This document shows, piece after piece, positions 21,601 through 61,424 of a stretch of DNA of 64,000 nucleotides. Where the stretch lies: the NCBI RefSeq assembly GCF_004010195.1, contig NC_057746.1, positions 9,109,412 to 9,173,411 of the forward strand, given 5' to 3'. The stretch is from Chiloscyllium plagiosum. Its lineage: Eukaryota. The notes beneath the pieces were generated by a model. It saw only the letters and a list, made by a program, of their open reading frames with translations, was not told the DNA's origin and did no database searches. The first letter of the stretch is position 1. Each line of letters begins with the position of its first letter. A program made the position numbers and the translations under genes.

Positions 21601-24600
21601 CATCTACAGGAGTACATATTCCCCATTACAGACAACCCTGAGTACCTGGGTCACACACTAACAGGAGTACATATTCCCCATTACAGACCACCCTGAGGAC
21701 CTGGGTCACACACTAACAGGAGTACATATTCCTCATTACAGATCTCCCTCAGTAACTGGGTCACAGATTAACAGGGGTACATATTGCCCATTACAGATCT
21801 CCCTGAGGACCTGGGTCACACAATAACAGGGGTACATATTGCCCATTACAGACCACCCGGAGGACCTGGGTCACACACTGACAGGGGTACATATTCCCCG
21901 TTACAGATCTCCCTCAGGACCTGGGTCACACACTGACAGGGGTACATATTCCCCATTACAGATCTCCCTGAGGGCCTGGGTCACACACTAACAGGGGTAC
22001 ATATTCCCCATTACAGATCTCCCAGAGGGCCTGGGTGACACACTAACAGGAGTACGTATTCCCCGTTACAGATCACTCTGATGGTCTGGGTCACACACTA
22101 ACAGGAGTACATATTCCCCATTACAGACCACCCGGAGGACCAGGGTCACACACTAACAGGGGTACATATTCCCCATTGCAGACCACCCTGAGGACCTGGG
22201 TCACACACTAACAGGGGTATATATTTCCCATTGCAGACCACCCTGAGGACCTGGGCCACTCACTGACAGGGGTACATATTCCCCGTTACAGACCACCCTG
22301 AGGACCTGGGTCGCACACTAACAGGGGTACATATTCCCCATTACAGACCACCCTGAGGACCTGGGTCACACACTAACAGGGGTACATATTCCCCATTACA
22401 GATATCCCTGAGGACCAGGGTCAGACACTAACAGGGGTACATATTCCCCATTGCAGACCACCCTGAGGACCTGGGTCAGACACTAACAGGAGTGCATATT
22501 CCCCATTACAGACCACCCTGAGGACCTGGGTCACACACTAACAGGAGTACATAGTCCCCATTACAGACCACCCTGAGGACCTGGGTCACACACTAACAGG
22601 AGTACATATTCCTCATTACAGACCTCCCTGAGTAACTGGGTCACAGATTAACAGGGGTACATATTGCCCATTACAGATCTCCCTGAGGACCTGGGTCACA
22701 CAATAACAGGGGTACATATTGCCCATTACAGACCACCCGGAGGACCTGGGTCACACACTGACAGGGGTACGTATTCCCCGTTACAGATCTCCCTCAGGAC
22801 CTGGGTAACACACTAACAGGAGTACGTATTCCCCGTTACAGATCTCCCTGAGGGCCTGGGTAACACACTGACAGGGGTACCTATTCCCCGTTACAGATCT
22901 CCCTCAGGACCTGGGTCACACACTAACAGGAATACATATTCCCCATTACAGATCTCCCTGAGGGCCTGGGTCACGCACTAACATGGGTACATATTCCCCA
23001 TTACAGATCTCCCAGAGGGTCTGGGTGACACACTAACAGGAGTACGTATTCCCCGTTACAGATCACTCTGATGGTCTGGGTCACACACTAACAGGAGGAC
23101 ATATTCCCCATTACAGATCTCCCTGAGGATCGCTCTGGGTCACACACTAACAGGAGTACATATTCCCCATTACAGACCACCCGGAGGACCAGGGTCAGAC
23201 AATAACAGGGGTACATATTCCCCTTTACAGATCACCATGAGGACCTGGGCCACACACCGGCAGGGGTATATATTCCCCATTATAGATCACCCTGAGGGTC
23301 TGGGTCACACACTGACAGGAGTTCATATTCCCCATTACAGATCACCTGGGTCACGCACTAAGAAGAGTATACGTTTTCACCGTTAAGGATTTCTTGTGGC
23401 CTAGGTTTCTCACTAACATGAAAGTGTGTTCAGCGTTACAAATTATCCTGCAGCCTGGGTGACACCTTAACGCAAGAGTACGTCTGTCCATTCCAGCCGT
23501 CCTGTGAACCTGGTCCACTCTCTAACACAAGTATACTTTCACTGTTGCAGCCTTCCTAGGAACCTGGGTCAAACTCTTACATGAGAGTTTGTTCACCATT
23601 GTACTCTGTGAAGCCAGGTCACTCTGTAACCCATGTGAGCACTAACCTTGTTTACTGCTGTTTGTTCTCCGTTGTGCTATCTCCACATTGGTGAGGGACA
23701 GACGCTGTCGGTCAATCAGCCGCTGTGTCTCCTGTTCCCAATATTGATCCGTCAGTGATGTCCGCATCCACGGCTGCCGAGGGATATTCTTCTGGATCAC
23801 ACTGTCAAAGTAGGTTATCTGGACATCATCCAAAACTCCAACATGAATGAATTTAGGAAAGTCATTGCTGTTCAGCATTGAGGTGTAGTAATACCTCAGG
23901 GAGTGTGATTCTGTCAAAGATAAAAGCCAAATCTGTCTCAGGGAAGACAATAAAACCATAAGACCTTGGAGCCGAGGTAGTCTACTCAGCCCATCGCATC
24001 GGTTTCAATGAGATCATGGCTGATCTGCGAGTCTCCAAATCCTCTTCCCTACCGTTTGTCCCATAACACTTGATTCCTGACTGATTTGAAATCTCAGCCT
24101 TACAAAATCCATAACAAACCCGCCTCTACATTTATTTGTGAGAAAGAATTTCACCGATTCACCACCCTCAGAGGAAAAGGACTTCTTCAATTCTGTCTTA
24201 ATCATGCAACCCCTTATTGTGAGATTATTCCCTCCGGCCCTGGATCTTCCCACAAGGGGAGCAACCCTTTCGGACCTCAGGTTGAGGTTCTGGACGTTCC
24301 AAACCCAGTATGGTGACCATACGAACATTGCAGCTCAGCGAGCAAACTTACACCCGGGGAACAACCTTTCCGCATCTCCCCTGCCAAATGCCGGAAAAAT
24401 CTTTGATGTTTCAATAAGATCGGCTATCATCCTCCTACAGTGCAATGAGGCCCAAATTATTCAACCACTCCTCATAACTCACTCCCTTCATTCCTGGCAC
24501 CAGCCTAGTGAACATTCTCCGGTCTGCCTCCAATGCTCGCACATCTATCCTTACAAAAGAGGCGCAAAACTTTTCACAGTATTCCAGCTGTGACCTGACC

Positions 24601-27600
24601 AATGCCTTATATAGTTTCATCAAAACCTCCCTAATTTTATATGCCATTGCCTTTGACATAGACGGAGAAAGTGAGGTCGCCAGATGCTCGAGATCAGAGA
24701 TGGAAATGTGTTGCTGGAAGAAGGGCTAATGCCCAAAACGTCGATTCTCCTGTTCCCTAGATGCTGCCTGACCTGCTGCGCTTTTCCAGCAACACATTTC
24801 CACCTTTGACATAGACACCAACATTCCATTTGCTTTCTCTAATAACTGCTGAACTTACATGCCAGTTTTTTTTTTGTGATTTGCACAGAGACGCTCATAT
24901 TCCTCTGTGCTGTAGTTTTCTGCAGTCTTTCTCCATTTAAATAATATTCAGCTCCCCAGTTCTCCTGCCAAAGTGAATTACTTCATATTTTCCCACAATA
25001 TGTTCCATTGGCCATGTTTTGCCCGCTCACTTGTTTATACCTCTTACTGACTTTTTGTATCAGCATTAGCACTTGTCTTCCCACTTATTTTTGTGTAATC
25101 CATCAACTTGGCTACAGTAACTCCTTCACGTTATTGACATATATCATAAATATTTGTGGCCCCAGCACAATCCCTGGTGCACTCCACCCTGGCTGCCATT
25201 TTGATAATACCCTCTCTTAGCCCAACTCTCTATCTTCTATTAGTTAACTAATCCTATATGCATACAAAGGTATTGCCTCCAACAACAGGAATACTTCACT
25301 TATTACATAGCTTATCAAGTATTACTTAATCAAGGGACTTCTGAAAATCTAAGTATATTACATCTACTGTTTCCCTTTTATCTATCCTGCTTGTTACTTC
25401 CTCAAAGAATTTGTATAAATTTGTCAGGCATGTTTTCCCCTTCATGAAGCTTTACTGACTCTGTTCATTTATATTATGTGTTTCTAAATTCCCTGCTGTT
25501 ACATCCTTTTAAAGAAACTCTAATGTTTCCCCCATAACAGATATTAAGCTAACTGGCCTATAAATACCTGTCTTTTTCCTATCTTTCCTTCTTAAATAGA
25601 GGTAGGAGAAAGTGGGGACTGTAAATACTGGAGAGTCAGAGTCGAAAAGTGTGGTGCTGGAAAAGCGCAGCAGGTCAGGCAGCATCCGAGGAGCAAAAGA
25701 GTCGACATTTCGGGCATAAGCCCTTCATTAGAACATTCCTGATGAAGGGCATATAGCCAAAAGGTCGACTCTCCCGCTCCTCGGATTCTGCCTGACCTGC
25801 TGCGCTTTTCCAGCACCATGCTTTTCAACTTCTTAAATAGACATGTTTGACAGTCTTCCAATCTGCTGGGGCTTTTCCAGAATCGAACTAGTCCTGGAAG
25901 GTTCCAGCCAGTGCATCTACTATCTCTACAGCTACTTCCTTTAGTATCCTCAGATGCATCCCATCAGGTCCATGGGACTTAATGGTTTTTAAACCCCATT
26001 AGTTTCCTCTGTTGAAAAGTATTTACGTCCATTCCTCCTTTTGTCACTTAATTATGTTGCAATTTTGGAATGTTATTAGCATCATGTACTGTTGAGATCA
26101 TTGGAAAGTATTTATTCAGCTCCTCTGCCGTTTCCTGGTTCTCCAGTGTTAGTTCCCCAGCGTTTTCCTAGGGACCTGCGTTTCCTCTCTCTGCCTTTTC
26201 AGATATTTAAATAAGCTCTTGCTGACTGTTTTCTTATTACTTTCAAGTTTCCCTCAAGTTTTAACTTTTCCCTCTTCATTAATTTCTTGGTCTTTTCTCG
26301 TTGGTTTTGAAGGTGTTCCCAATCCCCTGGCTTGCTACTAATTTTTGCCACATTTAATTTAAACTTATCTTTAATTGGACGATCTCCTTAACCTCCCTAA
26401 TTAACCATTGTTGGCTCATGCTCTTTCTAAAGTCCCCTTCTACTCAATGGGGTGTACCATATATACTCGAGTAAAAGTCAATTCTTTTTAAGGTTAAATT
26501 TATGGGGTCAACTATTATCTGGATACCACTTTTGAGGGGCTGAAATTCATGCCTGTCAAAATCTATACCATATCATTCGCAGAAGCCCAACTGATCCCTA
26601 AACAAATAAAGACACAAAAACTACGATTACGGTAATTCTGAACACCCAGAGTGGAGCAAGCCAAGTGGCACACTGATTCATAAATGTTGATTAGATTATT
26701 TACAACGTGGAAACAGGCCCTTCGGCCCAACAAGTCCACACCGACCCGTCGAAGGGCACCCATCCAGACCCATTCCCCTACATTTACCCCTGCACCTAAC
26801 ACTACGGGCAATTTAGCATGGCCAATTCACCTAACCTGCACATTTCTGGACTGTGGGAGGAAACCAGAGCACCTAGAGGAAACCCAAGCAGAATGTGCAA
26901 ACTCCACACAAACAGTCACCTGAGACGGGTCTCTGGCCCTGTGAGACAGCAGTGCTAACCACTGTGCCACCGTGCCGCCCATGACCTGTTACCTGTGAAG
27001 AACTAGGGTTGACTTTTTCATGTCATATATGGAACATTCTCGATTTTTTTGGCCGAAAATAAGGGGTTGACTTTAACAGGAGATCGACTATTACTCGAGT
27101 ATATATGATATCTCTGCTGTGAGGTTGTAAATGTCTTTAAATATCGGCCATTGTTCCCCAGTCTCCAAACTTCTTTCCCAGTTCATTCCTGCCAACTCTA
27201 CACTTATTCCTTTGTTTGAGTGTAGCACAATTGTTTCTGACCCAGGTTCCTCCCTCTCAAACTGAACGCTAAGTTCTACCAGGTGATGGTCACTTATTTT
27301 GACTCTAACACCATTTATTAAACCTGTCTCACGAGACAGTACCAGATCCAAAAGAGCCGAACCCTTGGTTGGGTCCATAACATATTGTTCAGGAAACTGT
27401 CCTGAATTCTTCCTCATGGTTACCTCTGTCAATCAGGCTACCCCAATGTCTATGAAGATTAAAGTTACCCATTATTAATGTACTACCTTTGTTGTATACC
27501 CTCATTATCTCCTGGTTCATTCTCTGTCCCGTTAGGGGTCCATAAATAATCGCTGGAAATGTGTTGCTGGAAAAGCGCAGCAGGTCAGGCAGCATCCAGG

Positions 27601-30600
27601 GAACAGGAGAATCGACGTTTCGGGCATAAGCCCTTCTTCAGGCTTATGCCCGAAACGTCGATTCTCCTGTTCCCTGGATGCTGCCTGACCTGCTGCGCTT
27701 TTCCAGCAACACATTTCCAGCTCTGATCTCCAGCATCTGCAGACCTCCCTTTCTCCCCGTCCATAAATAATCCCCTTGGGTTTCCTTCCCTTGACATTTC
27801 TTACGTCCACCTGTATGACTTCTACACCTTCTGATCCAGAATCATTTATTGCTGTTGTACTTACCCCAGCAGTGTACAAACACTACCTCACCAGTCTTCC
27901 CGTCTTGTTGAAAGGTCCCATGCATCTGAATATTTCATTCCCAGCTTCGATCTCCTTGGAATTATATCAATGTAATGACTATAAAATCTTACTCTGTACC
28001 CGTCGTCTGTGTTTGTGCCATAAGTTTCATTTATTTTGTTGCAAAAACTGCAAGCATTCAAGCAAAAATCCATTAACTTTACCTTTTCCAAAACCATTTT
28101 CCTCCCATGTTACCCTTTTTGCCACTGTTTTTCCATGTCCTTTCCACTCCAGCTATGGTATTCCAAGTAGTTTATTAGGGCCATATTTCGCTTTGTAAGT
28201 TTACATTCCCCCCCTCTCCCCCCCACCATCCGTTGAAAACCCTCTTTACAGCCCTTATTATTTGAGTCACCGGGGCCACAGGTCTCTGGTTAGTTCAGGC
28301 TAAGCCCATCCCATTGAAACAGTTTCCTTATACCCCAGTGTTATGCCACTGCCCCATAAAGTGAAACCCGCTGTACCCTCACCAATCTCTGAGCAACACA
28401 TTTAGCACCTTGACCTTTTTAAACCTACGGTGAAAAGTGCGGGGCTGGAAAAGCACCACAGGTCAGGCAGCATCCGGGCAGCAGGAGAGTTGACATTTTG
28501 GGTATAAGCCCTTCATCAGGAATGTGGTTGGGAAGGGAGGGGGGAAGAAAGGGGGCTCAAAAATAAATAGGAAGGAGAGGGTGGTGGGAAGGTAGCTGGG
28601 AAGGCGATAGGCAGGTGCAGTTGGTGGGGGGAGGGTGATAGTAATATACCCTATGCCAGTTTGCCTGTAAGGGTAGTAGTTCAGAGACTCTTACCTCAGA
28701 GGTTCTGCTTTTCTATTTAACCCCTAACTATTCAAGACCTTTCAGCAGAACTTCCTTTCTGGTCCAACAAATGTCATTGGTACCAATGTGGATGATAATA
28801 CTTGGATCCCTGCCTTAACTCTGCAGTCTGAAGAGATGTGCTGACATTGAGCACAGTCGTTTCGACTCAAGTTCCTCCCTCGCAAACTGAATGCCAAATT
28901 TCACCATGTGATACACCGCTCACCACCCCCAAGCCCAGGCTGGGCAAGTCAGCTTTTGGAACACCTGCTCACCACTGCTTGGAACTTTCCCTATCCCCCT
29001 ACTTATCCCGTCCATTCTCACAACTACAACCCTACTCCTTTCCCCATTTGAATGGCTCCATGTCATAAGGTTGACTCATCCCCACTTACATCGAACAATC
29101 CTGGAGGGATTGGGACCGGCGCTGGCCGGGATTGTGTTGGAATGCTCGAGTCAGGATGCAATGAGGGACTGAATGAGGGATGTGAAATGTGGTTTGTAGG
29201 GAACACTGATAGTGCGTCTGATCAGAAGCACTATGTATCCATGATAATAAAACCTGCTCATACACTGCTGGAGGTGAGAATGGAGGAGGCTGAGATGAGA
29301 GGTTCAGGAATGTAACAGACAAATAAAGACAAAGTCATAGAGGTGTAAAGCATGGACACACATCCTTCAGTCCAACTCATTTGTGCTGACCAGATATCCA
29401 ACATTAATCTAGTCCCAGTTCACAGCATTTGGTCCGTATCCCTCTGAACCTATTCATATACCCATCCAGATGCCTATTAACTGTTGCAATTGTACCAGCC
29501 TCCACCACTTCCTCTGGCAGCTCATTCCATACATGCACCACCCTCTGTCCTTAGGCTCTCTTTAAATCTTTCCTCTCTCACCTTACACCTATACCCTCTA
29601 GTTTTGGACTCCCCTACCTTGAGAAAAAGACCTTGCCTATTTACCCTATCCATGTCCCTCATAGAGTCATAGAGATGTACAGCATGGAAACAGACCCTTC
29701 AGTCCAACCTGTCCATGCCGACCAGATATGCCAACCCAATCTAGTCCCACCTGGCCCATATCCCTCCAAACCGTTCCTGTTCATATACCCATCCAGATGC
29801 CTATCAAATGTTGCAATTGTACCAGCCTCCACCACTTACTGTGGCAGCTCATTCCATACACGTACCACCCTCTGCATGAAAAAGTTGCCCCTTAGGTCAC
29901 CCCTCAGCTTCCGACCCTTCAGGGAAAACAGCCCCAGCCTATTCAGCCTCTCCCTATAGCTCAAATCCCCCAACCCTGGCAAATCCCTTGTGAATGTTTC
30001 TGAAACTTTTCAAATTTCACAACATCCTTCCTATAACAGGGAGGCCAGAATTGTACAGTAGTCCCCCTCGTACCTGTGGGGCGTACATTCCAAGACCCAC
30101 CGTGAACGTCTGAAACCGCGGATAGGTGTGAACCCATTCATTTCAATGGGAAACTTAGTTTCCTGGCAGCCCCCTGGTCCGTGGTTCTGGAATGTTCCCT
30201 GTAAAATGTTCAGGCCGCTGTAAACCGCGGGTAACTAAAACAGTGGAAACTTTCAATTTCAGTTTGACACTTCCAGAGAACAAACCATGTTTACAAACCA
30301 AGTTGGGAATATAAGAAAGGAAATACTCAGGAAGACCAGTACTGAGTAAGTGCTACACCTTTCAAGGGTCACTAGCAACTAGCATGGGAATACTGCACTC
30401 TCAGAGGTACAGTACAGCCGGAACACTGCGTTGTTAGAGAATCAGTACTGTGGGAATGTTAAACAAAACAAAAACCCTGCAGATTCTGGAAATCAGAAAC
30501 AAAAACAGAAATTACTTGAAAAACTCAGCAGATCTGGAAGCATCCTGTGGAGAGGAAGCAGAATTAACGTTTCGGGTCCAGTGATCCTTCTGCAGAACTT

Positions 30601-32519
30601 CCAATGCTGTCAGACCTGCTAGAGTGTCAAAGGGACAACATTGATAAAGTGCGATGCTATCTGAGGCTCAGCACTGAGGGAACACTGCATTGTTGGTGGA
30701 ACAGTATTGTGGGAATGCTACAGTGGCAGAGGGACAGTACTGAGGGAACACTGCATTGTTGGTGGGTCAGTATTGTGGGAGTGCTATAGTGGCAGAGGGA
30801 CAGTACTGAGGGAATAGTGCATTATCAGAGGGCCCATACAGAGTAAGTAACAACACTGTCGGAGGACCAGTACAGTGGGAATTCTGTAGTGGCAGACAGA
30901 CAGTACTGAGAGAAAGTGCACTATCAGAGGGTCAATACTGAGTAATTAGCCACACTGTAGGAGGACCAGGATTGGAGGAATTCTACAGTGGCAGTGGGCC
31001 AGTACTGAGGGAACAGTGCACTATCAGATGGTCAGTTCTGAGGAAATAGCTATACTGTACAAGGGTCAGGACTGTAAGAATGCTGTAATGTTAAGAGGAA
31101 CAGTACTGAATAAGTGCTACACCGTCAAAGCGTCCATACTGCAGGAATGTCAGAGGGACAGTATTAAGTGCGATACTTGAAGGGAGCATGGCACTATTGG
31201 AAGTGTGGCCTTTCACATTAGATGTTAAACCAAGGTCCCTTCTGCCACTCTTGTGGTTTTCAAAGGACTCTGGCGTTCCATTTCAAAGAAGAGCAACATC
31301 TTTGGGAATGATATTGATCTCTGAAGTCGCACCAGCAACGTGGATTATCTGATTAATGTAAAACAGCAGGATCTTGTTTGTAAACTGATTAGGTAAAAAC
31401 AATGACTGCAGATGCTGGAAACCAGATTCTGGATCAGTGGTGCTGGAAGTTGCCTGTCACGCTCATTTTGCACCAGGAACTGTATTTCAAAAGCCACTTG
31501 CTGGACTGCAAAGCGCAGTGGATCAGGTGTGTTAAAATACACCCATCCTCAGCATTTTCCACAGGCCTATCACAGCCTCACTCACACACTCTCAAACATC
31601 TATCTGCACTCAGCTTTCTGATGGCCTTTATAGTACCTGAACTCTCCTTTCTCAGTAGAATCTTTCTGCTCCCTTACTGTTTCATTGATTGCTCTCATTG
31701 TCTCAGGCACTTTTCACTGCCACTTGCTTCAACTTTAGACTGGGCCTCGCCCCAAGGGTAGACTTTGCTCTCCAAGTGGAATTCTCGTCCTTTAATAGAA
31801 TTACTTCAATCTTATACTCCTCAAGACTTCTCCCCATGCTAAATTGCCCATAATGGTCAGGGATGTGTAGGTTAGATGCATTAGTCAGGGGAAATGTAGA
31901 GTATATGGGGTAGGGGAATGGGTTTGGGTGGGCTACTCTTCGGAGGGTCGGTGTGGACTTGTTGGACTGAATGGCCTATTTCCGACCCTGTTGTCATATT
32001 CAAAACAAATTGAAAGATGGGTCAGGAAAGATTGCAAACGTTCAGAAATTCTCCCACAGCGATCCAATCGATGAGAAAACTAACATTCTGGATTCGTGGT
32101 GCTGGAAGAGGAAAGCAGTTCAGACAGCATCCGAGATTTTACTGCTCCTCGGATGCTGACTGAACTGCTATGCTCTTCCAGCACCATTAATCCAGAATCT
32201 GGTTTCCAGCATCTGAAGTCATTGTTTATACATACATCTCCTGGTATCTCTGACCTTCTCCACCCTGCTGTCAGGAGACCTGGACACAAATCCCATCAGA
32301 GTCTCCCAGACTGTGCTGCCTTCAATGTGTAAAAGATCAGGCTGGCTGTATAACAGGCGGCTGGTCAAACATCCCCCATTTCAAACTCTCCCCAAGAGAT
32401 TCACATTCACCCCAGACACAGAGAGAGAGAGAGAGAGAGAGAATGGAAAGCTGAATTCTGTACTTACCGGGAGAGACCCAGGAAAAACACAAAGAGATGG
32501 AGAGAAGGATCAGCAACAT
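6410..32519 (-). CDS. MHC class I heavy chain gene 1, probably shark nonclassical UDA-like. Join of 32519-32468, 23910-23647, 15834-15559, 13069-12803, 11086-10946, 8230-8204, 6612-6410; ~409 aa
   Basis: Leader/alpha1/alpha2/alpha3/TM/tail exons, all with GT-AG phase-1 junctions; summed length 1230 nt is in frame and ends in TAG. Motifs SHSLRYYYT, YWEQET, C101-C164, C1-set CLVTGFYP...CHIEHSSL. Confidence 0.93.
7130..7363 (-). mobile_element. HE1-type SINE
   Basis: Same consensus. Confidence 0.8.
8204..8230 (-). CDS. Class I gene 1 cytoplasmic mini-exon (GSEFSGTST)
   Basis: 27 nt; strong acceptor ttttttatttcag and donor gtgagt; phase 1-1. Confidence 0.75.
8668..10500. repeat. 33-bp minisatellite CACTGTCAGAGGGTCAGTACTGAGGGAGTGCCG, about 55 copies
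   Basis: Direct tandem periodicity; 11-aa repeats in the ORF track. Confidence 0.97.
10946..11086 (-). CDS. Class I gene 1 exon 5, transmembrane segment and proximal tail
   Basis: tctttcag|AGAAAG ... CATG|gtgaga; GMIGAIFALVLLIFCIAAGIYY followed by basic RKHK. Confidence 0.88.
12412..12668. repeat. 127-bp tandem duplication
   Basis: Near-identical copies start at 12412 and 12539. Confidence 0.9.
12803..13069 (-). CDS. Class I gene 1 exon 4, alpha3 Ig C1-set domain
   Basis: 267 nt; cacacag|TTGTC ... TGGG|gtaaga; LHCLVTGFYPRSINVTW...PNHDGTYQ...CHIEHSSL. Confidence 0.96.
13490..15320. repeat. 33-bp minisatellite TGCCCTGCGTACTGTGCTGTGTACAGTGCCCCG, about 55 copies
   Basis: Direct tandem periodicity. 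Confidence 0.97.
15559..15834 (-). CDS. Class I gene 1 exon 3, alpha2 domain
   Basis: 276 nt; tatttag|GTTTG ... AAAG|gtaggt; LQYTSGCE...STQDKWN...QYTKRICVDWLNTY. Confidence 0.96.
15950..16290 (-). mobile_element. HE1-type SINE; an opposite-strand partial copy lies at about 16420-16600
   Basis: Same consensus. Confidence 0.8.
16690..18470 (-). mobile_element. CR1 (HER1-like) LINE fragment
   Basis: PGPDGIYPRILKEAREEIA and KIFYRY motifs; decayed. Confidence 0.8.
18480..18796 (-). mobile_element. HE1-type SINE
   Basis: Same consensus. Confidence 0.85.
19629..19656 (+). ncRNA. Minimal hammerhead ribozyme motif, family A
   Basis: CTGATGA-A-GGGC TTTT GCCC-GAAA-CGTC. Confidence 0.62.
19725..20990 (+). 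mobile_element. Rex1/Babar-type LINE reverse transcriptase fragment
   Basis: DYSSAF, LCNWILHFLTHRPQSVRVG, APQG, LYTHDC motifs, with frameshifts and stops. Confidence 0.8.
21555..23640. repeat. 55-bp minisatellite, about 33 good copies, decaying toward the alpha1 donor
   Basis: Unit ACATATTCCCCATTACAGACCACCCTGAGGACCTGGGTCACACACTAACAGGGGT. Confidence 0.95.
23647..23910 (-). CDS. Class I gene 1 exon 2, alpha1 domain
   Basis: 264 nt; tttgacag|AATCACAC ... CAAG|gttagt; ESHSLRYYYT...DQYWEQETQ...AQRRTNSS with the N86 glycan site. Confidence 0.96.
24664..24802. mobile_element. Mini-insertion from a Penelope-like tail, 14-bp TSD CCTTTGACATAGAC
   Basis: TSD at 24650-24663 and 24803-24816; partial inverted arms. 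Confidence 0.8.
25601..25828. mobile_element. Palindromic mini-insertion from a Penelope-like tail, 13-bp TSD CTTCTTAAATAGA
   Basis: TSD at 25588-25600 and 25829-25841; two diverged inverted arms. Confidence 0.8.
26457..27108. mobile_element. Non-autonomous Tc1/mariner (pogo/Tigger-like) DNA transposon with a nested SINE
   Basis: TIRs CCATATATACTCGAGTAA / TTACTCGAGTATATATGA flanked by TA. Confidence 0.7.
26690..26980 (-). mobile_element. HE1-type SINE
   Basis: Same consensus. Confidence 0.8.
27552..27758. mobile_element. Palindromic mini-insertion from a Penelope-like tail, 14-bp TSD GTCCATAAATAATC
   Basis: 81-bp perfect inverted arms (27552-27632 / 27641-27721); TSD at 27538-27551 and 27759-27772. 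Confidence 0.85.
27614..27641 (-). ncRNA. Minimal hammerhead ribozyme motif, family A
   Basis: On -: CTGAAGA-A-GGGC TTAT GCCC-GAAA-CGTC. Confidence 0.6.
30330..31170. repeat. Degenerate array of the same 33-bp family
   Basis: Recurring CAGTACTGAGGGAA / GCACTATCAGAGGG. Confidence 0.7.
32468..32519 (-). CDS. Class I gene 1 exon 1, signal peptide MLLILLSISLCFSWVSP
   Basis: ATG at 32519, hydrophobic leader, donor CCG|GTAAGT in phase 1, SXY module and TATA upstream. Confidence 0.88.
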
Positions 32520-41217: not shown

Positions 41218-44200
41218 CTGCCAATGGGGATCAGGTGGTTAAACAAGATCCTGACTCTAAAGTCCATCGAAAAGCAGAACTACCAGCTATCGATGCTCTG
41301 ACCATGAATCACAGTGACAATGTTCAGCTCATGTGATTCCAGTGTCTGAGGATCCAATCCTGAAGATAGTCTTTTCTGGGTAATTTCAGAGTGAACAGCA
41401 AGATTATAATGTCTGTTTAAAAGTGACTCAGACACAGAGCAAGATGGACTTCTGTCTTTGGGAACAAGTTGTTGTAGTTGAGAATGTGTGAGGGGAAGCT
41501 ATCCCTGAAGATCCCTTCGACTGTGAGAGCCATCACCTTGCTGACACAATCAGGATCCCACGAGCTAGGGAATGGACAGACACAAGGCACTCTCATTAAG
41601 CCAGCCCTGAAAAATGAGAAAGAGTTAAACATTTTAGACAAAGCTGTTCCTCTTGGGTTGGTCAGAGTATACACTGCTCGGTGTCTGTGTAACTGTGATT
41701 GTCAATAAGAATACAGCTAAAGTGGTGAAGGTTACTGTATTTAAGGTGGCAACAATTAATGTCAGACTTCAGGGGGTTGTTGTGATCTGCTTTCTGTCTT
41801 TCGGGTAGGGCCTGGATAATAACTGAACTTCATCCAACACAAAGTGCAAGACAGACTCAGAATGGGAATGAGAATGATCTGAGAGTGAAACACTTACCAC
41901 TTGTAATATGGATCGACGAAATTAATGGGTAAATACTTGGTTAAATGAGGTAAATGTGAAACTGCCCATTTCCTCAGGAAGAATAAAAAAGGAACATGTT
42001 GTCTAAATGGTGAGAGTGTGCAGAGCTCTAAGATCCAGAGTTTGTGAGTCCCCTGGTACATGGATCACCAGGTTGGTTGTCAGATACAGCAGCTCATACG
42101 GAAACCTCAGAGAATGTGATTGTTCATTGTGAGGGGAACGGAACATAAAAGTAGGGAGGTTCTGCTTTAGCCATACAGGGTATTGACGGCCAATGGAGGA
42201 CTGTCTACAGGTTTGCTCTCCTTGCTGAAGGAAGGAAACAAGTGAATTGGAAACAGTACAGAACACATTTACCAGATTATTACTTAGATTGAGGTGTGGT
42301 GTCTTATGAGGAAAGGATTGATTGACTCGGTTTGTATCTGCTCGAGTTCAGAACAGTAAGGGGGGCTTGACTGAAACGTGTGAGATCCTGAGGGGTCTTG
42401 ACAGGTTTAGATTTGAAGATGATGCTCAACCATTTGTGAGAAAATGTGTTTCCTCATCTCTGTTTTAAACGGATGACCCCTTATTTCCAAACATTGAGCC
42501 CTAGTTGCAGATATTCCCATTAGGGGATACATCTTCTCCTCAAAATATGTTAGAACCCAAATCTTCGACTATTTTTAAGGCAGAGGCTGATAGATTCTTG
42601 ATAAACAAGAGGGTGACGTTATCGGGGGGATTTGGGAATGTGCAGTAATCAGAGCAGCTCCCCCCATGATTTCATTGACAGTTAGAGCTGATTTAAAGGG
42701 CCGAATGGCCTACTCCTGCCCCGATTTCCTTTGTCCATCTGAACGTAATTATAGCCATGGGGCAAACACTGAGAGTTACAACTGGATCCACAGAGAAAAA
42801 CCAAAATGTCACTCACTGAGTCATGAAGGAGCTGAGACAGAGACCTCAGAAGCTGAGAAAATAAAAACAGATTGTGAGGAACGTAATAAAATATAAAAAT
42901 AGAGAGTGTGAGATACTAGCTATCACTCATTTGACCCAGGATTCAATAAAGCCCCCCCCCACCTTCACGAAACAGACTCACACAGCACAGCACTGAGGGA
43001 GTGGAGTGTGAGATTCCATGTGAACATATGGAATTATTCCCAGGAGAATGTAACACTACATCTTCCAATCCCTTCTCCATCATTCCCAACACTCTGTCCC
43101 CTCAATCACTTACTGGGAGCTGTTGTGTAGGTCCCACTTGGGGAACCTGCAGAAACAAAATAAATGTCCATTAGGATGGGGAATAATCCATTCTCAGAGA
43201 ATGAGAACACAACAAGTGTGAGGGAATGGAGATTGTGTCAGAAATCCTCATTCCCACACTCCCCTCCATCCTTACACCTTATGGAGATTCTGGAGATCTC
43301 TCCCATTCCATTGATATTCAGTCAGTGAGGATGTGAGTGTGTGCAGTGGGTTTAATGATCAATATTAGACCTCGTCTGGGCTGATCTCACAAAGGAAGAT
43401 CAGACAGGGAACAAGACATGATTATACGTGTGTATCTGTGTGTGGGAATTCAATCAGTTCCATTCCCCACAGTGCCCTGTACTCCCAGTACTGGAGACTC
43501 CCCCACACTCACTCTGTCCCCTCAGTTCGACATTCCCCTCTCTTTGATTCTTACCTCTCCATGGCCTTTTCCGGATGATTATTCCCATTATCCCAACAAT
43601 AACAGCTAGGAGAATGATCATTGATGCAATGACACTTCCAAGATGGGAACGTCCCCAATTATTTTCCAGGATTTCTGAAACAGAATGGAATAAAATCAGG
43701 ATTGTCTCTGTTCCCCAATCCATTCCAAGTTCTGTGTTGATTGGGAACAATTTTAACTGATCCCACCCATTGGGAATTGATGGGATAGGTTGAAATACTG
43801 TCTGAGCCTCATCGGATTGCCCTCTGCAGTGAAGTCACTAAAGATCCCATTGATGGGGATATAAACATCACGTTGTCCCAAACCTAGGGGTTACCTTCCT
43901 GGAGAGTTCAGTTTCCACTCTCCCTGATGTCTCTGTGTCCTGTCCTTGTTCAATCCCCAGGGTTATACTGGACAGCCCAGGAGGCAGCATTACTGATGGT
44001 TTTCACATCAAACTTCAAAGGGAGGAGGAATCAACTGACTGCAGGAAACAGGGCTCACTTTGTTCCATTTTGTATACTGATAAAGTGCCAATTAAGTGCT
44101 CTATGGTGTAGTGGTAGTGTCCCTACCTCTGGGCCAGAGGAGAAAATGTGACACTCAGCAATTCTTGCAGAATCTGTGGCAAGGGAAATGTCGAAAGGTT

Positions 44201-47200
44201 GAAGAAGGGTTATTCTGAAATTGAACATTAATTTTGTTTTTTCTCTCTCCACAAACCCTGCCAGAACAGCTGAATATCTGTAGTATTCTCTGTGTTTGTT
44301 CAGATTTCCAGCAGCTCCCCCGGATGTCTGTCTGAACAGGCTGATATAAGTTATCTGTCACATGCTGGTTAGCAATGCAGCAATGTAAATTCGGATAGCA
44401 AAACGTGACTTTTAGCTTTGCTCCTAACATATTACTGTCTTTTGAGTTTACTCTGTGTAACTCGGGCTTGTGTGTATTTTGTGCTGTCATGAAATCCTGT
44501 TAATAATGCTACAATCAAATTCACCCAGTACAGCATTTAATTCTGGGCTGCCTTTTAATTGTGTTTACAGCAACAACATTTTACATTTATATTGTGACTT
44601 TTAAATTTGGAACACATCCTGAAATGCTGCACAGGAACATAACAGAAAAATCCATGAATAGGAAAAAGTTACAAATCACACAACACCAGGTTTATTTGGA
44701 AGCACTAGCTTTTGGAGCACTGCTCATCCGTCAGGTAGCTGTTGAGCAGATGAAGGAGCAGCGCTCTGAAAACTTGTACTTCCAAATAAACCTGTTGGAC
44801 TGCAACTTGGTGTTGTGCGATTTTTAACTTTGTCCAACACCCGCACTTCCACATCATGAATAGGAAAGGTTTGGAGGGATAGGGACCAGGAGCAGACAGG
44901 TGAGACTAGTTGAGTTTGGGATCACGTTTGGCGTGGGCGGTTGGACCGAAGGGTCTGTTTCTGTGCTGGATGACTCTGTGGCTGTATGCCAAGCCTTGAA
45001 GAAATGCTGGAAAAACACCTTTTTTCTCTCTTAAATACGGAAAAGCAAGGATTCTTTTTTCCCCCAGCTGCGGCCTTTCTGAAAGATCAATGATCGAGAA
45101 TGAGAAGTGACGTGATGCTACACAGGGAAGACATTAAGCTAAGATTGCTGTATCAGCTGAAGGTGTGAAATCTGAGACTCTTACAGAAGGTGCAGGACCC
45201 AAAAGTACCCGATCAGAGGGTCCTGAGGAACATGCAATCGTCCTGAAAGCTTATGGACATTTTAATGAGAGAATTGTGAAACTAAAATTGGGTTTTACCA
45301 AATTTAGCACAAGTCCAGAGAGGAAAGGGGTACAAAGAGAACTTGCGGGACCCTGCTTTGTGCACGTGAAGAGAGAGAGAGCAAGACCAAAAGTTTACCC
45401 AGAGACAGTGAGAGACAGCGCGACAGTCAATTGGAATATTTTGGACCGAGCTTTAATTGAACTGAATTCTAACTTTAACAAAACTGAATATTTTGTAAAT
45501 CAACCAGTCCAGGAATGGTAACGACACACCTCTGGAGCAGGTGGGACTTGAACCCAGGCCTTCTGGCTCAGAGGTTGGCACACTGTGTTACAAGAGCCCT
45601 GACTGCCCTTTTTAATGCTTTGTACAGATCCTGAAGTACATTAATAAATGCTTTGGGATTGTTTAAACTCATCTGCACTGTCCAGGGGTGGTCCATGCTT
45701 GGTCACAAACACGTTTTTGGTCCAGATTTAAGGGAATCATACAATTCCTTTCTACTGACCTGATGATGAGGCAAATGACAATTAAGGCACTGTTACAAAA
45801 GAGGCACAAAGGTACAATCCACCAAGGACTTAGTCTGAAGCTCCTGCAACTGGCCGACATGGTCAAGGCATGAAATAAGTGAGAGAATCCAGCTTAAAGA
45901 AAGTGCCCAGAGATTGAGGGACAGGCACCTAGACAAGTCTCAGCAGATCAAAGAGTGTGTGGATGGACTTGTGTCAGGAAAAACTGAAGTGTTAAGCTGG
46001 CAGTGACATTTCCCTTGAATTGAGTATTTCTAAAAAGATTGCCTTGGGAAGCAAGATGCAACTTTGTTTTAATATAAAACAAAGAACTGTGGATGCTGGA
46101 GATCTGAAACAGAAACAGAAATTGACTCTACTTTCTCTCCACTAATGCTGTCAGATCTGTTGAGTTTCTCCAGCAATTTCTGTCTCTGTGGAAACCTGAT
46201 TTTGCTGTTTGTCTGAATATCTTTCTGTCACAGACATCTAGTTTTGTTCATTTTTCTTGTGCGCAATAAGCCTGTGCTGTGCTTTTAAAGACCGTCTGCA
46301 GGATGGAGTGAATATGCTTCAGTGTCTATCCAGCAGCAACAATAATAAAAATAATCAGCAAGTGATCCATCAAGTCAGACTTCCTTTCAGAACATAGAAC
46401 ATAGAACATAGAAGAATACAGCGCAGTACAGGCCCTTTGGCCCTCGATCCAAGCCCACCTAACCTATACTAACCCACTATCCTCCATATACCTATCCAAT
46501 GCCCGCTTAAATGCCCATAAAGAGGGAGAGTCCACCACTGCTACTGGCAGGGCATTCCATGAACTTACGACTCGCTGAGTGAAGAACCTACCCCTAACTT
46601 GAGTCCACACACACACCAGTCCCTTACCCCACTGATAGAGCTGGGCCTCTGTCAGGCTGCTGTGGTCAATGTGACAGGAGTATTGATCCTCATCCCCAGC
46701 ATTGATCTCAATCTCTTTCTGGATCTGATGGGTCCCATTGTGGTTTGGTCGTATCCCCGAGGATTGGGTCTCAGACATGACCTCTCCATTCCTTAGCCAG
46801 GTCACCTCGATGTCTACAGGATAAAACCCAGTGACCAGGCAGGAGAGAGTGAGCGGCTTGTCCTGACCATTGGGCTCCCTCCTGGAGATGAACACTTCAG
46901 GCTGAACTGTGATGGGAAAGGGTGAAAACACAAACAATAGACAGACACTGAATGGAATGGGAGAACGGTTTCATAGATCAGTGAGGTTAGATCAGAACGT
47001 GGGATCAGAACCGTGTCAGGACTATGTTGCTTATATCTTTGTATCTTTAAAAACTGTGGACTACGAGGAAGGACTGCTTTTGTAAACAGGGACTTGCCAG
47101 GATGGCTGCATAATTTCACAGCAAGGAAATTGATACCTATTTTGAACTCTGTTTTTGATAGTTGTGTGTTCCTGAAATTTGCAGGAGTTGAGTAGCTATT

Positions 47201-50200
47201 TCTAAATTAAGCTGATTCATTCTTAGTTAACTGAGCAGGCTGGAACTGGAACCAAGTTACACAGACACATTTACACACACACACACACACACAGACACAC
47301 GTACACACACACACATACACACACACCTGTGCTGAAGTTCTTCGTAGTAGAAGCTACCTGTTCTCTGCAGTAAAAAGAACCTGATTTTTAAACTTGAAGT
47401 AAACCAGTTCCCTTTCCTGCAGCATTTGCTGTGGGCTGTGAGTTTTGAAGTGAGAAAGACAACTGAACAGTAAGTGGCATAGGATGATTTCAACATTGAA
47501 GTCAGAAAACAGAGACCATTAGACTGACTTTCCTCTTTCAATGATCCATTTTCCCCATTTGTTTATTTTTGTATGTTTAAGGGAGACTTTATAAAGGGAA
47601 AAGAGTTTTAGTTAGTAGTGTTATATACCAAGGGTATGTTTCCGTTTACTTGTAACAATAGTCTAATTACTTATGGTAAGTAATAATTCTTGGTTAGTAC
47701 AGAAACCTGGTCTGTGTTTTGTATAAAACTTGGACTGAATATCAAGCAGGTTGAGGTACTATGTGAACCTTAAAAAGAAACTTTACCATTTGGTATGTCT
47801 CCAGGGACAGAACAATTTACAGCAGACTGTCCCAGTGGGTGGTAACAACTGAAATAAATACCTTTCCTTTTGAAGTATTTTTTTCCAGCTTGCAAATATC
47901 TCATTAAATACTGAACGCATACTTCTTCCAGATGTTCTTTCCATAATTTGTTCCAGGATTCATCAGAATCCCATTTTTCCTTTATCTTCACTGCCTTGTC
48001 ATTGGAAGCAACCCATCTCATTCTGTCTGGCTCAAGGCTGATATAGTCCCTTCCATCAAATCCAAAACGCATCGATCTCTTTGTGGAACCTTTCCTGACT
48101 TTATCATCTTCATTCATCTCCACACTCCTAATCCATTGAAATATGTGAATTCCTGCCAGTGACCAAAAAAAAGGATCAACAATCAATTCTGATGGAACAT
48201 GTTCCACTTGTCTGGATAGTTTCAGCTCCAGCAACACACATGAGGCTAAACAGAATCCAGACAAACCAACTGCCCATCTATCATCTTAAGCATTCCCCCC
48301 CCCCCCCCCACCCCCACCAGCACCAACGCACAGTGACAGCAGTGTGTGTTACCTGCCAGGTATACACTCCAATAACTCACCAAGGCTCCTCACTGCAGCT
48401 ACTCCCAAATCTATGAGCTCTACCTAAAAGGGGAAGGTGTGAAGATATTTGAGAACACCACAAACCTGCCAGTTCCTCTCCAATCCCACTGGAACGTGAA
48501 CTATAACACCATTCTTTCACAATCACAGGATCAAAATGCAGGGACATCCTTCCGTACAGCACTGGGGCTGAAGAGTGGGTTACAGCCACAGGGTTGAATT
48601 CTGCTTTTATTTTGTGAAGGGTCAATTTCATCAAGTTTCAAGGATGGTTTCTATCCATGAGGCCTAATGGGTCTCCACCTTCTATCATCCTAAACCCGCC
48701 TCAATAACCGCCTGCCCTCCCAGTGACAATACTGAGAACCCACCACTGTCTGAGTATCCCAGAATGGACTGGCATCTCTGAAGCTGCTGCCAACTTCCAA
48801 AGAATTGAACAGGTTGCTCACTGGGCAGGCACTGTCTGTCTGGATCTGTCCTGCACACTTTAGGATATTTGGGACAGCAGAGGAATTTTGCGTCATGCTT
48901 TGTGGACGGGCAGTGGGAGGTGCTGATGGACCGGGTTGTGTAGAGGAGGAGTGTCCTCTTCTCTCAGGACCAGCAGAGGGAGCCACATACTACACCCTGA
49001 CATCCTGCTGGGAGGTTGCCCTCTGGTTCAGTGCAATGTCAGCTGCCCGGAGGAAGGCTCAGCAAATGGAGGAAGAAGCTCATTGACCTTCTCTGCTCTG
49101 ACAGGGTAAGGGCCACCATCTGTTCTCTGCTGCCTCACATACACTATCGCTGTCACTGCACCCACTTCCCACCAAGGCTCACTTTAACTATCGCATTCAG
49201 CATCTTCCCTCTCTCTCTCATACTGTCAGGGAGCTATAAACCTGCACTCCGAGGTCTCTTTGTTCAGCAACACTCCCTAGGACCTTACCATTAAGTGAAT
49301 AAGTCCTGCTAAGATTTGCCTTTCCAATGTGCCGCACCTCACATTTATCTAAATTAAACTAAAAAAAATGACACGGGTAAACCCACCTGCTTATTTTAAC
49401 CCAGCAACACAGAAAAGATTTATCCTGTGCAGCAATGTGTGAAAGTTGATAGGCCAAGAACTAGTTAAAGTGAAAGTAACAACTTTATTTCTTAAAGTAT
49501 AACAGAGAAGAATTAACTAACAACTATTTACAACTCTTTCCTCTAACCTACCGTTTACTTTCTCTTTCTACGATACTTATCAGATAAAACTCCTGATTAA
49601 GTTTACAAAACAAAATTTCTTATCTCCAAACCAAACAGCTTTCGGTTTTCCTCTGTATTCCTGTCTTCTTTTCTTCTTCTCAGGACTTCTGCTTCCTAGG
49701 TTACTGAGTGATAACGGTACCTTTAAGACGGTTCTTTTTTGGGCAGCCTTTTTACATGCTAGTGCTTTGGCTGCTCTCCTCCCAACTGTTCCACTTTCCC
49801 CGGATTTATACCCCCAAAGCATTGGATTGTGTCATTGGTTTTTAAAGTTGTCAATATACTAAATTCTAACTGGATTGGAGTTTTTTTTTGGGGGGGGGAT
49901 ATAATTTAAACTGATTGGCCTAATTTGAATCTGTTTTTGTCTCCAGACAACCAGCTAATCAAGCTATTCGACCAAATGTTACATTATATGTTTTTTCAGA
50001 ATACTTGGTTCTGTCAGGTAGGTCTGTTGCTTTTAACTCTCTTAAAGTTACAATACACCCACATCTTCATAACAACTTCATTAACCACTCCTCAGCCCAT
50101 TGGTCCATCTGCTCAAGATCTCATTGTACTCTGAGGTAATGTTTTTCGCTGTCCACTACATCTCCAATTTTGGTGCGATCTGCAAACTTACTAACAATAG

Positions 50201-51757
50201 CTCCTATGTTCACATCTAAATCACTTATATAAATGATGAAAAGCAGTGGACCCAGTGCTGATCCTAGTGGCACACTCCACTGGTCACAGGCTTTTAGTCT
50301 GAAAACCAACCCTCCATCACCACCCTCTGTCTTCGACCTTCAAGCCAGTTCTGAATCCAAATGGCTGGTTCTCCTTGTATTTCATGAGATCTACCCTTGC
50401 GAACCAGACTCCCATGGGGAACCTAGTTGAAAACCTTACTGAAGTCCATATAGATCACATCCACCACCCTACCTTCATCAATCCTTCATGTTGTAAGAAT
50501 AAAATGTGTTTTGCTTAAAGCTAAGAAGATGACCAATCAAACCAAAACTGAAGCATAGGGCCTTACACTTGCCTTAACAAAAAAGTTAGGGTCCAGGCCA
50601 TTTTCTTCATATGTTTTGAGGGGGCTGGGGAGTTGGTCTGCTCCATCACACACTGAACTTACCAGTTGTCTGGTTTGTACTTTTCATCATTGTATCCAGA
50701 ACCTGCTTTGCAATGTCTGATCGTGTCTTCACGAGACTTGTGATATATTTCCAGTATTCAACACCAAAAGAGTCTGCCATGAACTGCAATTTAGGGATGG
50801 TCTGATTGAGTTTGGTGTCAAAATAATCAATCTGGATTCCATTGACCATTGCAATACCAATAACCTCAGGCATATCATCAATGCCAGAGACTGCTGTGAA
50901 GATCACTGAAAATGTGTTAGCATCTGTAAAAAAACAAGAGACAGGTTACTAGTTATTTACATGGACTACAATCCGTGTAAGGACCCATCTACACAGTGAC
51001 TATCTCCCGTAGTCCACCACTTCATCACACTGTCAGAGTCCTGTCTGATGTCATAAACCGAATCAGATTCAACTGGGTCAGAATTAGCTGCTGCAGCCTC
51101 TAAGACCAGGGAGTAAACACAGAATCAGAGTCACTCAGATACTTGGGGTGGCACGGTGCCTCAGTGGTTACACAGTGCCAGGGACCGGGTTCAATTCCCG
51201 CCTCAGGTGACTGTGCGGAGTTTGCACATTCTCCCTGTGTCTGTGTGGATTTCCTCCGGGTGCTCTGGTTTCCTCCCACAGTCCAAATATGTGCAGGTGA
51301 GGTGAATTGACCATGCTAAATTGCCCGTAGTGTCAGATGTAGGGGAATGGGACTGGGTGGGTTGCTCTTCGGAGGGTCGGTGTGGACTTGTTGGGCCGAA
51401 GGGCCGGTTTCCATACTTTATGGAATCTAATCTAATCTAATCTAATCTTAATGGAGTCAGTTTGGACACAGGGAAGAGGCTGGGACAGAAATGTTAAACA
51501 GATTAATCACTAATTTGCAACAGTAACCTGGTACACAGTCTATCACTAACCTGGAGCAGTAACCTGGGACAAACCCGGTCTATCGCTAACCTGGAGCAAT
51601 GTCCCAGGATAAACTGGAAAAGGACATTGAGAAGACTATCCTGACCATGGTCCGTCTGGACTGAGGAATTCAGGATAATCCGAGGGCAGGTTTATCCATA
51701 ACCAGGGAAGATGTGGAGTGAGTGAATCCAGATTGAAATGAAGAGAAACAGGAATAT
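41180..51757 (-). CDS. MHC class I heavy chain gene 2, divergent nonclassical (UEA/UBA/UCA-type unresolved), possibly start-codon-defective. Join of 51757-51703, 50923-50663, 48152-47862, 46906-46628, 43674-43555, 43146-43114, 41217-41180; ~358 aa
   Basis: All exons GT-AG, phase 1, no internal stops; class I fold motifs (YFD, EYW, FDGRDYISL, KEKWD, CLVTGFYP, YSCHIDHSSL). Confidence 0.88.
43114..43146 (-). CDS. Class I gene 2 cytoplasmic exon (GSPSGTYTTAP)
   Basis: 33 nt; tttctgcag / gtaagt; YxxA motif as in class I exon 6. Confidence 0.85.
43555..43674 (-). CDS. Class I gene 2 transmembrane exon
   Basis: 120 nt; tgtttcag|AAATC ... AGAG|gtaaga; LGSVIASMIILLAVIVGIMGIII-RKRPWR. Confidence 0.88.
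44666..44854. mobile_element. Palindromic mini-insertion of family B, 13-bp TSD CATGAATAGGAAA
   Basis: TSD at 44653-44665 and 44855-44867; inverted arms with decayed hammerhead cores. Confidence 0.7.
46628..46906 (-). CDS. Class I gene 2 alpha3 exon
   Basis: 279 nt; catcacag|TTCAG ... TGGG|gtaagg; LSCLVTGFYPVDIEVTW...YSCHIDHSSL. Confidence 0.96.
47862..48152 (-). CDS. Class I gene 2 alpha2 exon (lacks Cys101)
   Basis: 291 nt; ctggcag|GAATT ... AAAG|gtattt; GIHIFQWIRSVE...FGFDGRDYISL...KIKEKWD...EEVCVQYLMRY. Confidence 0.94.
49369..50074 (-). mobile_element. Probable solo LTR of another family, inserted in a CR1 fragment
   Basis: TGTTATGA...CCGTGTCA termini, AATAAA near the 3' end, interrupts LINE sequence. 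Confidence 0.45.
50663..50923 (-). CDS. Class I gene 2 alpha1 exon
   Basis: 261 nt; tttttacag|ATGCT ... ACTG|gtaagt; DANTFSVIFTAVSG...VEYWKY...STNQTT. Confidence 0.93.
51145..51448 (+). mobile_element. HE1-type SINE
   Basis: Full head to AATCTAATCTAATC tail. Confidence 0.85.
51703..51757 (-). CDS. Class I gene 2 putative leader exon, (I)FLFLFISIWIHSLHIFP, starting at ATA
   Basis: TTCCCAAAATATTCCTG aligns with the gene 1 start region TTCCCAGAATGTTGCTG; hydrophobic; phase-1 donor CCTG|gttatg; TATAAA at 51884-51889. Confidence 0.6.
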
Positions 51758-61296: not shown

Positions 61297-61424
61297 GTAA
61301 GAGGGCCTTTGTTGTTGCTGCAAAAATATGCGTTAGTTATGACTTCTGTATGAGTACATTGCAAAACAAGAAGCATTTCAAAATATATGGCGTTCCTCAT
61401 TTGAACCTTTGCACTGCCAGATAC

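What the first reader, a model, noticed from the sequence alone, without database searches (positions are those of the whole stretch)
47862..50923. Gene 2 groove lacks the alpha2 disulfide and four anchors and has a basic loop insertion
Seen: C101 is V (QWIRSVE), leaving C164 unpaired; Y7V, R84S, T143I, Y159H and W167Y; the alpha1 floor is hydrophobic (FSVIFTAV, VIGIAMV); the first alpha2 loop is 5 aa longer than in gene 1 and basic (DDKVRKGSTKRS); there is an extra N-glycan site (LNQT). Known: C101-C164 is almost invariant in class I, and hydrophobic-groove shark lineages (UEA/UCA) have been proposed to bind non-peptide ligands. Inference: a lipid/metabolite-binding or disulfide-dimerising class I variant, possibly an undescribed sublineage.
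Basis: partly seen in the sequence, partly recalled or inferred. Interest (0 to 1): 0.72.

Follow-up and report, generated by a model that had tools for sequence, protein, structure and literature searches.

The report
Shark disulfide-free MHC class I gene
This bamboo-shark immune gene really lacks a nearly universal disulfide bond and has a greasy binding groove, but so does its whole large shark gene family (likely the described UEA lineage), so it is an ordinary member that likely binds something other than a standard peptide.

Summary
Gene 2's exons are intact, in phase and match a public gene model; its leader likely lies in an assembly gap. C101 is absent from 23 of 23 readable paralogues in this genome and from 64 of 64 family domains in 12 shark species; most lack C164 too. 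Two published shark 'UCA'-labelled sequences also lack both cysteines. The family is one clade (100/100), is multicopy, gave only shark hits, and gene 2 sits beside UDA and UFA: it is most likely UEA, whose defining paper I could not read. Private to the bamboo-shark orthologues are a 5-residue loop and one glycan site; lone C164 is a scattered relic, so dimerisation is unlikely. Alpha2 is under purifying selection; spliced transcripts appear in two probable RNA runs. The better lead is family-wide: four invariant groove tryptophans plus M114, with W97/W152/W156 together in 0 of 126 disulfide-keeping class I. Ligand untested. The scan's index showed no earlier finding on like sequence.

The parts
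50663..50923 (-). gene 2 alpha1 exon (261 nt); V7, S84, conserved N86 sequon
   Evidence: AG/GT ends; joined to alpha2 in contigs
50799..50807 (-). extra N-glycan sequon NQT (near HLA 43), private to the orthologue group
47862..48152 (-). gene 2 alpha2 exon (291 nt); W97, M114, W133, W147, W152, W156; I143, H159, Y167
48121..48123 (-). V101 codon (Cys in most class I)
48091..48105 (-). 15-nt in-frame insertion DKVRK in the first alpha2 hairpin (exact edges depend on the alignment)
47917..47919 (-). C164 codon, the only Cys of alpha1-alpha2
46628..46906 (-). gene 2 alpha3 exon (279 nt), Ig C1 with both Cys; N-G-T sequon at 46739-46731
43555..43674 (-). transmembrane exon (120 nt)
43114..43146 (-). 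first cytoplasmic exon (33 nt)
42821..42852 (-). last cytoplasmic exon with stop codon
52088..52587 (.). assembly gap that likely holds the leader exon (inferred)
   Evidence: window 51451-52087 matches intron 1 of paralogues up to the gap edge; in L057 and L068 the leader lies about 250 bases further; no leader found elsewhere upstream in the window or the next 10 kb
10945..32519 (-). neighbour gene 1 = UDA (leader 32519-32469, alpha1 about 23910-23646, alpha2 about 15834-15559); keeps C101 and C164
   Evidence: its exons closely match Gici_UDA (compared by eye)

Best explanation
Gene 2 is an open-frame member of a large shark family of nonclassical MHC class I genes (likely UEA) in which every readable member lacks C101, and it likely pairs with beta2-microglobulin and likely holds a hydrophobic, non-peptide ligand. 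Shown: exon structure, family-wide loss of C101, clade membership, position beside UDA and UFA, purifying selection on alpha2. Predicted: the normal class I fold without the disulfide. Inferred: (1) the disulfide was lost once, in an early shark ancestor of the family, and C164 is a buried relic that most branches later replaced; (2) the invariant W133/W147/W152/W156 with M114 and mostly W97 pack the alpha2 helix on the sheet and line the F end of the groove; (3) the A end, where the disulfide and the N-terminal anchors were lost, varies between paralogues and would tune specificity; (4) the DKVRK loop and extra glycan site are local surface changes of one orthologue group. Odds: family membership about 0.9, functional gene about 0.9, non-peptide hydrophobic ligand about 0.5.
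For: C101 in 0 of 23 readable paralogues of 24 found in this genome, C164 in 1 of 21. C101 in 0 of 64 family alpha2 domains with a letter there, from 12 named shark species. Outside the family 158 of 172 alpha2 domains keep both Cys, as do 23 of 26 published reference domains; two of the three exceptions are the shark 'UCA'-labelled ones. The nurse shark one is 64 of 92 identical to gene 2 alpha2 (counted by eye). Family clade of 55 rows at 100/100. Order family gene, UDA, UFA here fits the published UDA+UEA(+UFA) cluster; the white shark model that fuses a family gene to UDA lies in that cluster near BRD2 and B2M. dN/dS to paralogues 0.16-0.45 (alpha2, 12 pairs) and 0.36-0.66 (alpha1, 15 pairs); own branch 0.22 for alpha2. 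Spliced alpha1-alpha2 contigs in 2 of 4 runs laid. Q96, G117, D119, G120, D122 at recalled beta2m contacts are 51 of 51. M114, W133, W147, W152, W156 are 51 of 51 and W97 44 of 51; W97+W152+W156 together in 0 of 126 C101-keeping class I. Model of the orthologue: canonical eight-strand, two-helix platform, pLDDT 83-94 in alpha1-alpha2 except 67 at the loop; best Foldseek match shark class I 6LUP.
Against: No sequence labelled UEA was available: the matching published sequence is labelled 'Gcirratum_UCA' and 'UEA' has 0 hits in that supplement, so the name rests on copy number, synteny and distribution. The alpha1 branch ratio is about 0.95 on about 56 synonymous sites: relaxed, diversifying or noise. 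The Hemiscyllium orthologue models skip the alpha2 helix and the membrane anchor. The raw single-cell run gave no depth on the alpha1 or alpha2 exon (2% of a poly-A run read); the two spliced contigs come from other coded organisms in runs only guessed to be RNA, and one has a one-base gap near its end. Family groove hydrophobicity is wide (KD -0.52 to 0.81, mean 0.08), so a lipid ligand need not hold for all. The structural matches tie MR1, classical and other class I (Z 23.1-23.7) and say nothing on ligand. In HLA, C101S is reported to cost stability and function (PMC2900293, passage).
Confidence: 0.55

Rival explanations
1. The groove is closed by the tryptophan cluster and holds no ligand; the protein works as a receptor ligand or regulator, as MICA, HFE or FcRn do (recalled).
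For: 14 of 36 groove positions are aromatic and four Trp are invariant; a filled groove would also explain stability without the disulfide.
Against: Mean side-chain volume of groove positions (163) equals that of classical alleles (161); the A end varies between paralogues, as expected of a binding site.
Confidence: 0.2
2. It binds hydrophobic peptides in an unconventional way, held at the C-terminal end by K146/W147 and free at the N-terminal end, as suggested for Xenopus XNC4 (PMC12562908, passage).
For: K146 is 48 of 51 and W147 51 of 51 in the family; Y59, Y123 and Y171 are kept in gene 2.
Against: Y7, R84, T143, Y159 and W167 are replaced; W147 and W133 are also common structural residues in other class I (107 and 109 of 126).
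Confidence: 0.15
3. The lone C164 links two heavy chains into a disulfide dimer.
For: C164 is unpaired, is kept in the Chiloscyllium punctatum orthologue, and is shared with the sister gene P0006 (99/96).
Against: Position 164 is F, L, Y, G or S in most members and Cys in 4 of 55 tree rows at three separate places; it normally faces residue 101 inside the fold (recalled), here a valine; the Hemiscyllium orthologue models lack this part altogether.
Confidence: 0.05
4. Gene 2 is a recently silenced copy in a birth-and-death family.
For: 8 of 24 alpha2 paralogues here carry stops, frameshifts or a broken 5' end; alpha1 branch ratio about 0.95; leader not seen; low RNA signal; neutral drift of 0.02 per site would leave both exons open 63% of the time.
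Against: All six exons seen are open, in phase and with AG/GT ends; alpha2 branch ratio 0.22; neutral drift of 0.2 per site would leave both exons open only 2% of the time; orthologues are 96-98% identical in alpha1; spliced contigs exist.
Confidence: 0.05

Closest known systems
Shark UEA nonclassical class I lineage (Almeida et al. 2021, PMC8454915: not held, title seen in reference lists only; described as multicopy and clustered with UDA in PMC10751288 section 9 and as an expanded family in PMC12562908)
   Same: Multicopy, on the MHC contig, beside UDA and near UFA; only shark hits; lost anchors and hydrophobic groove (the last two recalled from the abstract).
   Different: Gene 2 and its bamboo-shark orthologues alone have the 5-residue loop and the LNQT site, and keep C164, which most members lack. 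Whether the paper remarks on the missing disulfide or the Trp cluster I could not check.
'Gcirratum_UCA_NODE_26056' and Squalus acanthias UCA AF515705 (supplemental file 10 of PMC10751288, read)
   Same: Both have V at 101, no C164, and W97, W133, W152, W156. The nurse shark sequence is 70% identical to gene 2 alpha2 and closely matches family member P0085/L049 in alpha1 (by eye).
   Different: Squalus UCA is far more divergent (F at 147, different alpha1 and alpha3) and was not placed on my tree.
Shark UFA and UGA, CD1-like, reported to bind lipids (PMC12562908, passage citing a personal communication; PDB 9CH4 matches the Gcirratum_UGA sequence)
   Same: Nonclassical, same cluster, hydrophobic groove (KD 0.46 for the UGA-like P0132).
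   Different: Single or low copy; both keep C101 and C164; outside the family clade.
Mammalian MR1
   Same: Aromatic-rich groove with basic residues (here R70, R99, H159); ties for best structural match.
   Different: MR1 keeps the disulfide and is single copy; its Schiff-base lysine K43 aligns with T or I here; its aromatic cradle is at the A end (recalled), the invariant Trp here are at the F end.
Teleost L lineage (PMC4364491, passages)
   Same: No peptide anchors, highest hydrophobicity, proposed lipid binding.
   Different: A separate bony-fish lineage; cysteine state not checked here.

Membership tests
MHC class I heavy chain | alpha1-alpha2 platform, Ig C1 alpha3, membrane anchor, phase-1 exons | tested here: met
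Shark UEA | multicopy family | tested here: met
   24 further alpha2 and 22 further alpha1 family matches in the genome, lower bounds
Shark UEA | in the class Ib cluster with UDA and UFA, near BRD2/B2M | tested here: met
   UDA next door, UFA about 50 kb before the window start; other members at 0.44-0.61 Mb beside a BET gene at 0.79 Mb of the same contig; gene 2 itself is 8.4 Mb from that BET gene in this assembly
Shark UEA | sharks only, not rays or chimaeras (recalled) | tested here: met
   all named hits (48 and 64 proteins) are sharks, one is unnamed; word-based search, so absence elsewhere is weak
Shark UEA | peptide anchors replaced, hydrophobic groove (recalled) | tested here: met
Shark UEA | clusters with sequences named UEA, and with one of its three sublineages (recalled) | not testable with these tools
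   defining paper not held; no sequence labelled UEA found; the published family member is labelled UCA
Squalus UCA | orthology to AF515705 | tested here: inconclusive
   shares V101, lost C164 and four Trp by eye; not put on the tree
Classical UAA | nine conserved anchors and C101-C164 | tested here: not met
   4 of 9 lost, no C101; outside the UAA/UBA clade
UDA | low copy, anchors kept | tested here: not met
   gene 1 is the UDA; gene 2 alpha2 is 27% identical to UDA
UFA / UGA (CD1-like) | low copy, orthology to nurse shark UFA or UGA | tested here: not met
   separate loci L078 and L058 hold these; both keep the disulfide
Lipid- or metabolite-presenting class I (works-like claim) | bound non-peptide ligand | not testable with these tools
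   sequence hydrophobicity only

The most novel reading that the evidence does not exclude
UEA and UCA are a shark-wide class I branch that swapped the alpha2 disulfide for a tryptophan cage (W97/W133/W147/W152/W156 with M114) that grips a conserved microbial lipid or metabolite at the F end, while dozens of paralogues vary the freed A end: a multigene shark counterpart of MR1/CD1, with gene 2 among its most hydrophobic members (3rd of 51).
Probability: 0.2. Interest if true: 0.7.

Novelty: new member of a known kind. Interest (0 to 1): 0.3.

Why it matters
For this copy, little: it is one annotated member of a described family. For the family: C101-C164 is kept even in CD1, FcRn, UFA and UGA, and its loss destabilises HLA. 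A lineage that has done without it across five shark orders is a natural test of how a class I platform folds without it, and the invariant tryptophans give a precise place to look for a ligand. Gene 2 is a handy test case because it still has C164, so one laboratory substitution at 101 asks what the disulfide would change.

Tried and rejected
Copy-specific loss of C101: rejected. Undescribed sublineage defined by the lost disulfide: rejected; gene 2 forms only a two-row branch with P0006. Long-term pseudogene decay: rejected. Loop as a rarity: the same length occurs in 13 of 126 other class I; by eye the insert is not a clean tandem duplication. PDB 9CH4 as a solved family member: it is the UGA type; no solved structure of the family was found (best Foldseek rows 27-33% identical). 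The UEA and UDA papers were not held. Eight paper searches gave no text on a missing alpha2 disulfide in shark class I; 'UEA shark MHC cysteine' gave 0 papers; the library lacks most subscription journals, so this is no proof of novelty. No listed holder run was on record as RNA. dN/dS between orthologues could not be computed: only their proteins were held and one search did not list the exon differences. The model's coordinates are not returned, so burial of C164 and groove shape were not measured. The look-up of earlier findings by sequence was empty.
Full report
Observation. The finding's limits are exactly the alpha1 exon start (50923) and alpha2 exon end (47862) of a minus-strand class I gene. 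Downstream lie alpha3 (46906-46628), a transmembrane exon (43674-43555) and two tail exons (43146-43114, 42852-42821); all have AG/GT ends and keep phase. A public gene model, P0052, matches these exons from the MPEV of alpha1 onward, and a Chiloscyllium punctatum model, P0003, is 97% identical in alpha1 and alpha2, so this is a bamboo shark. No leader is visible; the upstream DNA matches intron 1 of paralogues right up to a 500-base gap, and their leaders lie about 250 bases further on, so the leader likely sits in the gap. The lists of anchor, groove and beta2m-contact positions are recalled, not from a call.

The trait belongs to the family. The alpha2 exon found 39 matches in the genome; 24 besides itself are close relatives at 58-73%. 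C101 is absent in all 23 where the position can be read (one is masked); C164 is present in 1 of 21. The more distant matches keep both cysteines. Two database searches (48 and 64 proteins) returned 12 named shark species and one unnamed protein. Among 66 family alpha2 domains, position 101 is V 60, L 2, I 1, A 1, gap 2; C164 occurs in 7, two of them isoforms of the orthologue (an eighth count is a misaligned truncated model). As a control, 172 alpha2 domains from 134 of 146 broad class I representatives kept both cysteines in 158 cases; three of the rest are family members and several others look truncated.

What is private. The five-residue insert and the LNQT sequon occur only in gene 2 and its C. 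punctatum and Hemiscyllium ocellatum orthologues. The model places the insert in a low-confidence stretch (pLDDT 67) on an otherwise confident platform (folded from P0003 with 47 relatives). A hairpin of this length occurs in 13 of 126 other class I.

Identity. A maximum-likelihood tree of 74 alpha1-alpha2 regions puts 55 family rows in one clade (100/100, stem 0.8), apart from UAA/UBA, UDA and UGA-like rows; the gene 2 orthologue pairs with P0006 (99/96), and C164 appears in 4 rows at 3 places (truncated models and extra isoforms were left out). PMC10751288 (section 9 read whole; other passages; supplement parts 4, 97, 98) says that single-copy UDA, multicopy UEA and UFA share one class Ib cluster near brd2 and beta2m. 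PMC12562908 (passages) names UBA and UEA as the two expanded shark families. Gene 1 matches Gici_UDA, a UFA gene lies about 50 kb before the window, and a white shark model fusing a family gene to UDA is listed in that cluster. There, a nurse shark sequence labelled UCA is a clear family member and lacks both cysteines, as does Squalus UCA AF515705; 23 of the 26 reference alpha2 domains keep both. I infer that the label is an older name for UEA; the UEA paper itself was not held, and what I say of its content is recalled.

Selection and expression. Pairwise dN/dS of gene 2 to intact paralogues is 0.16-0.45 for alpha2 (12 of 24 loci; broken, masked or cut ones dropped) and 0.36-0.66 for alpha1 (15 of 22). 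On its own branch the ratio is 0.22 for alpha2 but about 0.95 for alpha1, and the nearest paralogue differs between the two exons. Neutral simulation leaves both exons open in 2% of runs at 0.2 changes per site but 63% at 0.02, so only recent silencing stays possible. Of four runs laid on 42300-51150, two probable RNA runs from other coded organisms hold contigs that join alpha1 to alpha2 at the right intron (one with 7 differing letters over 523; one running on into intron 2, with a one-base gap near its end); a third holds an exact 167-base alpha2 piece; the raw single-cell run shows no depth on these exons. Against this, the Hemiscyllium models skip the alpha2 helix and membrane anchor.

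Mechanism. Beta2m-contact residues Q96, G117, D119, G120 and D122 are invariant in 51 family proteins, so normal assembly is likely. Alpha2 is more conserved than alpha1 across the family (70% against 51%). M114, W133, W147, W152 and W156 are 51 of 51, W97 44 of 51, whereas 159, 163 and 167 at the A end vary freely. W133 and W147 are common to most class I, but W97+W152+W156 occur together in 0 of 126 C101-keeping proteins and are present in Squalus UCA. The simplest reading is that an aromatic cluster at the F end stabilises the helix and lines a pocket, while the A end lost both its disulfide and its anchors. Gene 2's groove is 3rd of 51 in hydrophobicity and carries R70, R99 and H159, which would suit an amphipathic ligand. 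This is inference; a closed groove or an unconventional peptide remain open, and fold searches do not separate them. PMC2900293 (passages) reports that C101S costs HLA stability and function; PMC4364491 (passages) makes the same hydrophobicity argument for teleost L lineage. PMC6523485 and PMC9586880 (passages) added nothing.

Verdict. Real observation, known kind of gene. The copy-level novelty is small. The family-level pairing of a lost disulfide with a fixed tryptophan set was not found in eight searches of the held library, but the key paper and its supplements were out of reach and may well describe it.

Noticed in passing
window 32519-32469 (-): The leader exon of gene 1 (UDA) is nearly the same as the leaders of gene 2's family (many genomic copies at 87-95% DNA identity), although their alpha1-alpha2 are about 25% alike. 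UDA-like proteins P0004, P0114 and P0117 carry it too; P0171 does not. Shared promoter/leader by conversion or exon shuffling is a guess.
   Followed up: partly
window 46906-46628 (-): Alpha3 is 90-97% identical among seven C. punctatum family members whose alpha1 is only 29-56% identical: exon-limited homogenisation or strong constraint.
   Followed up: partly
window 46739-46731 (-): An N-G-T sequon in alpha3, at the recalled beta2m-facing strand; the orthologue and the laid reads have D there, so it may be an allele or copy-specific change.
   Followed up: partly
family proteins, HLA position 45 (P0003 residue 59) and residue 86: 19 of 51 family members carry Cys at position 45, the site that aligns with MR1 K43, and 7 carry Cys in the alpha1 helix; gene 2 has neither.
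   Followed up: no
P0046, P0053 (Hemiscyllium ocellatum orthologue): Both models jump from mid-alpha2 to alpha3 and skip the membrane anchor; broken allele, odd splicing or annotation error.
   Followed up: no
window 60835-61350 (+): RING and B-box exon of a TRIM-type gene upstream of gene 2.
   Followed up: partly
G000:C37 0.44-0.61, 9.16, 12.96 and 13.36 Mb, and many small contigs: Family members are spread over the MHC contig and unplaced pieces, whereas the white shark table shows a tight cluster; may reflect scaffolding.
   Followed up: no
window about 8600-10500 and 13400-15500: Long tandem repeats give long open frames in the gene 1 region; not coding as far as seen.
   Followed up: no
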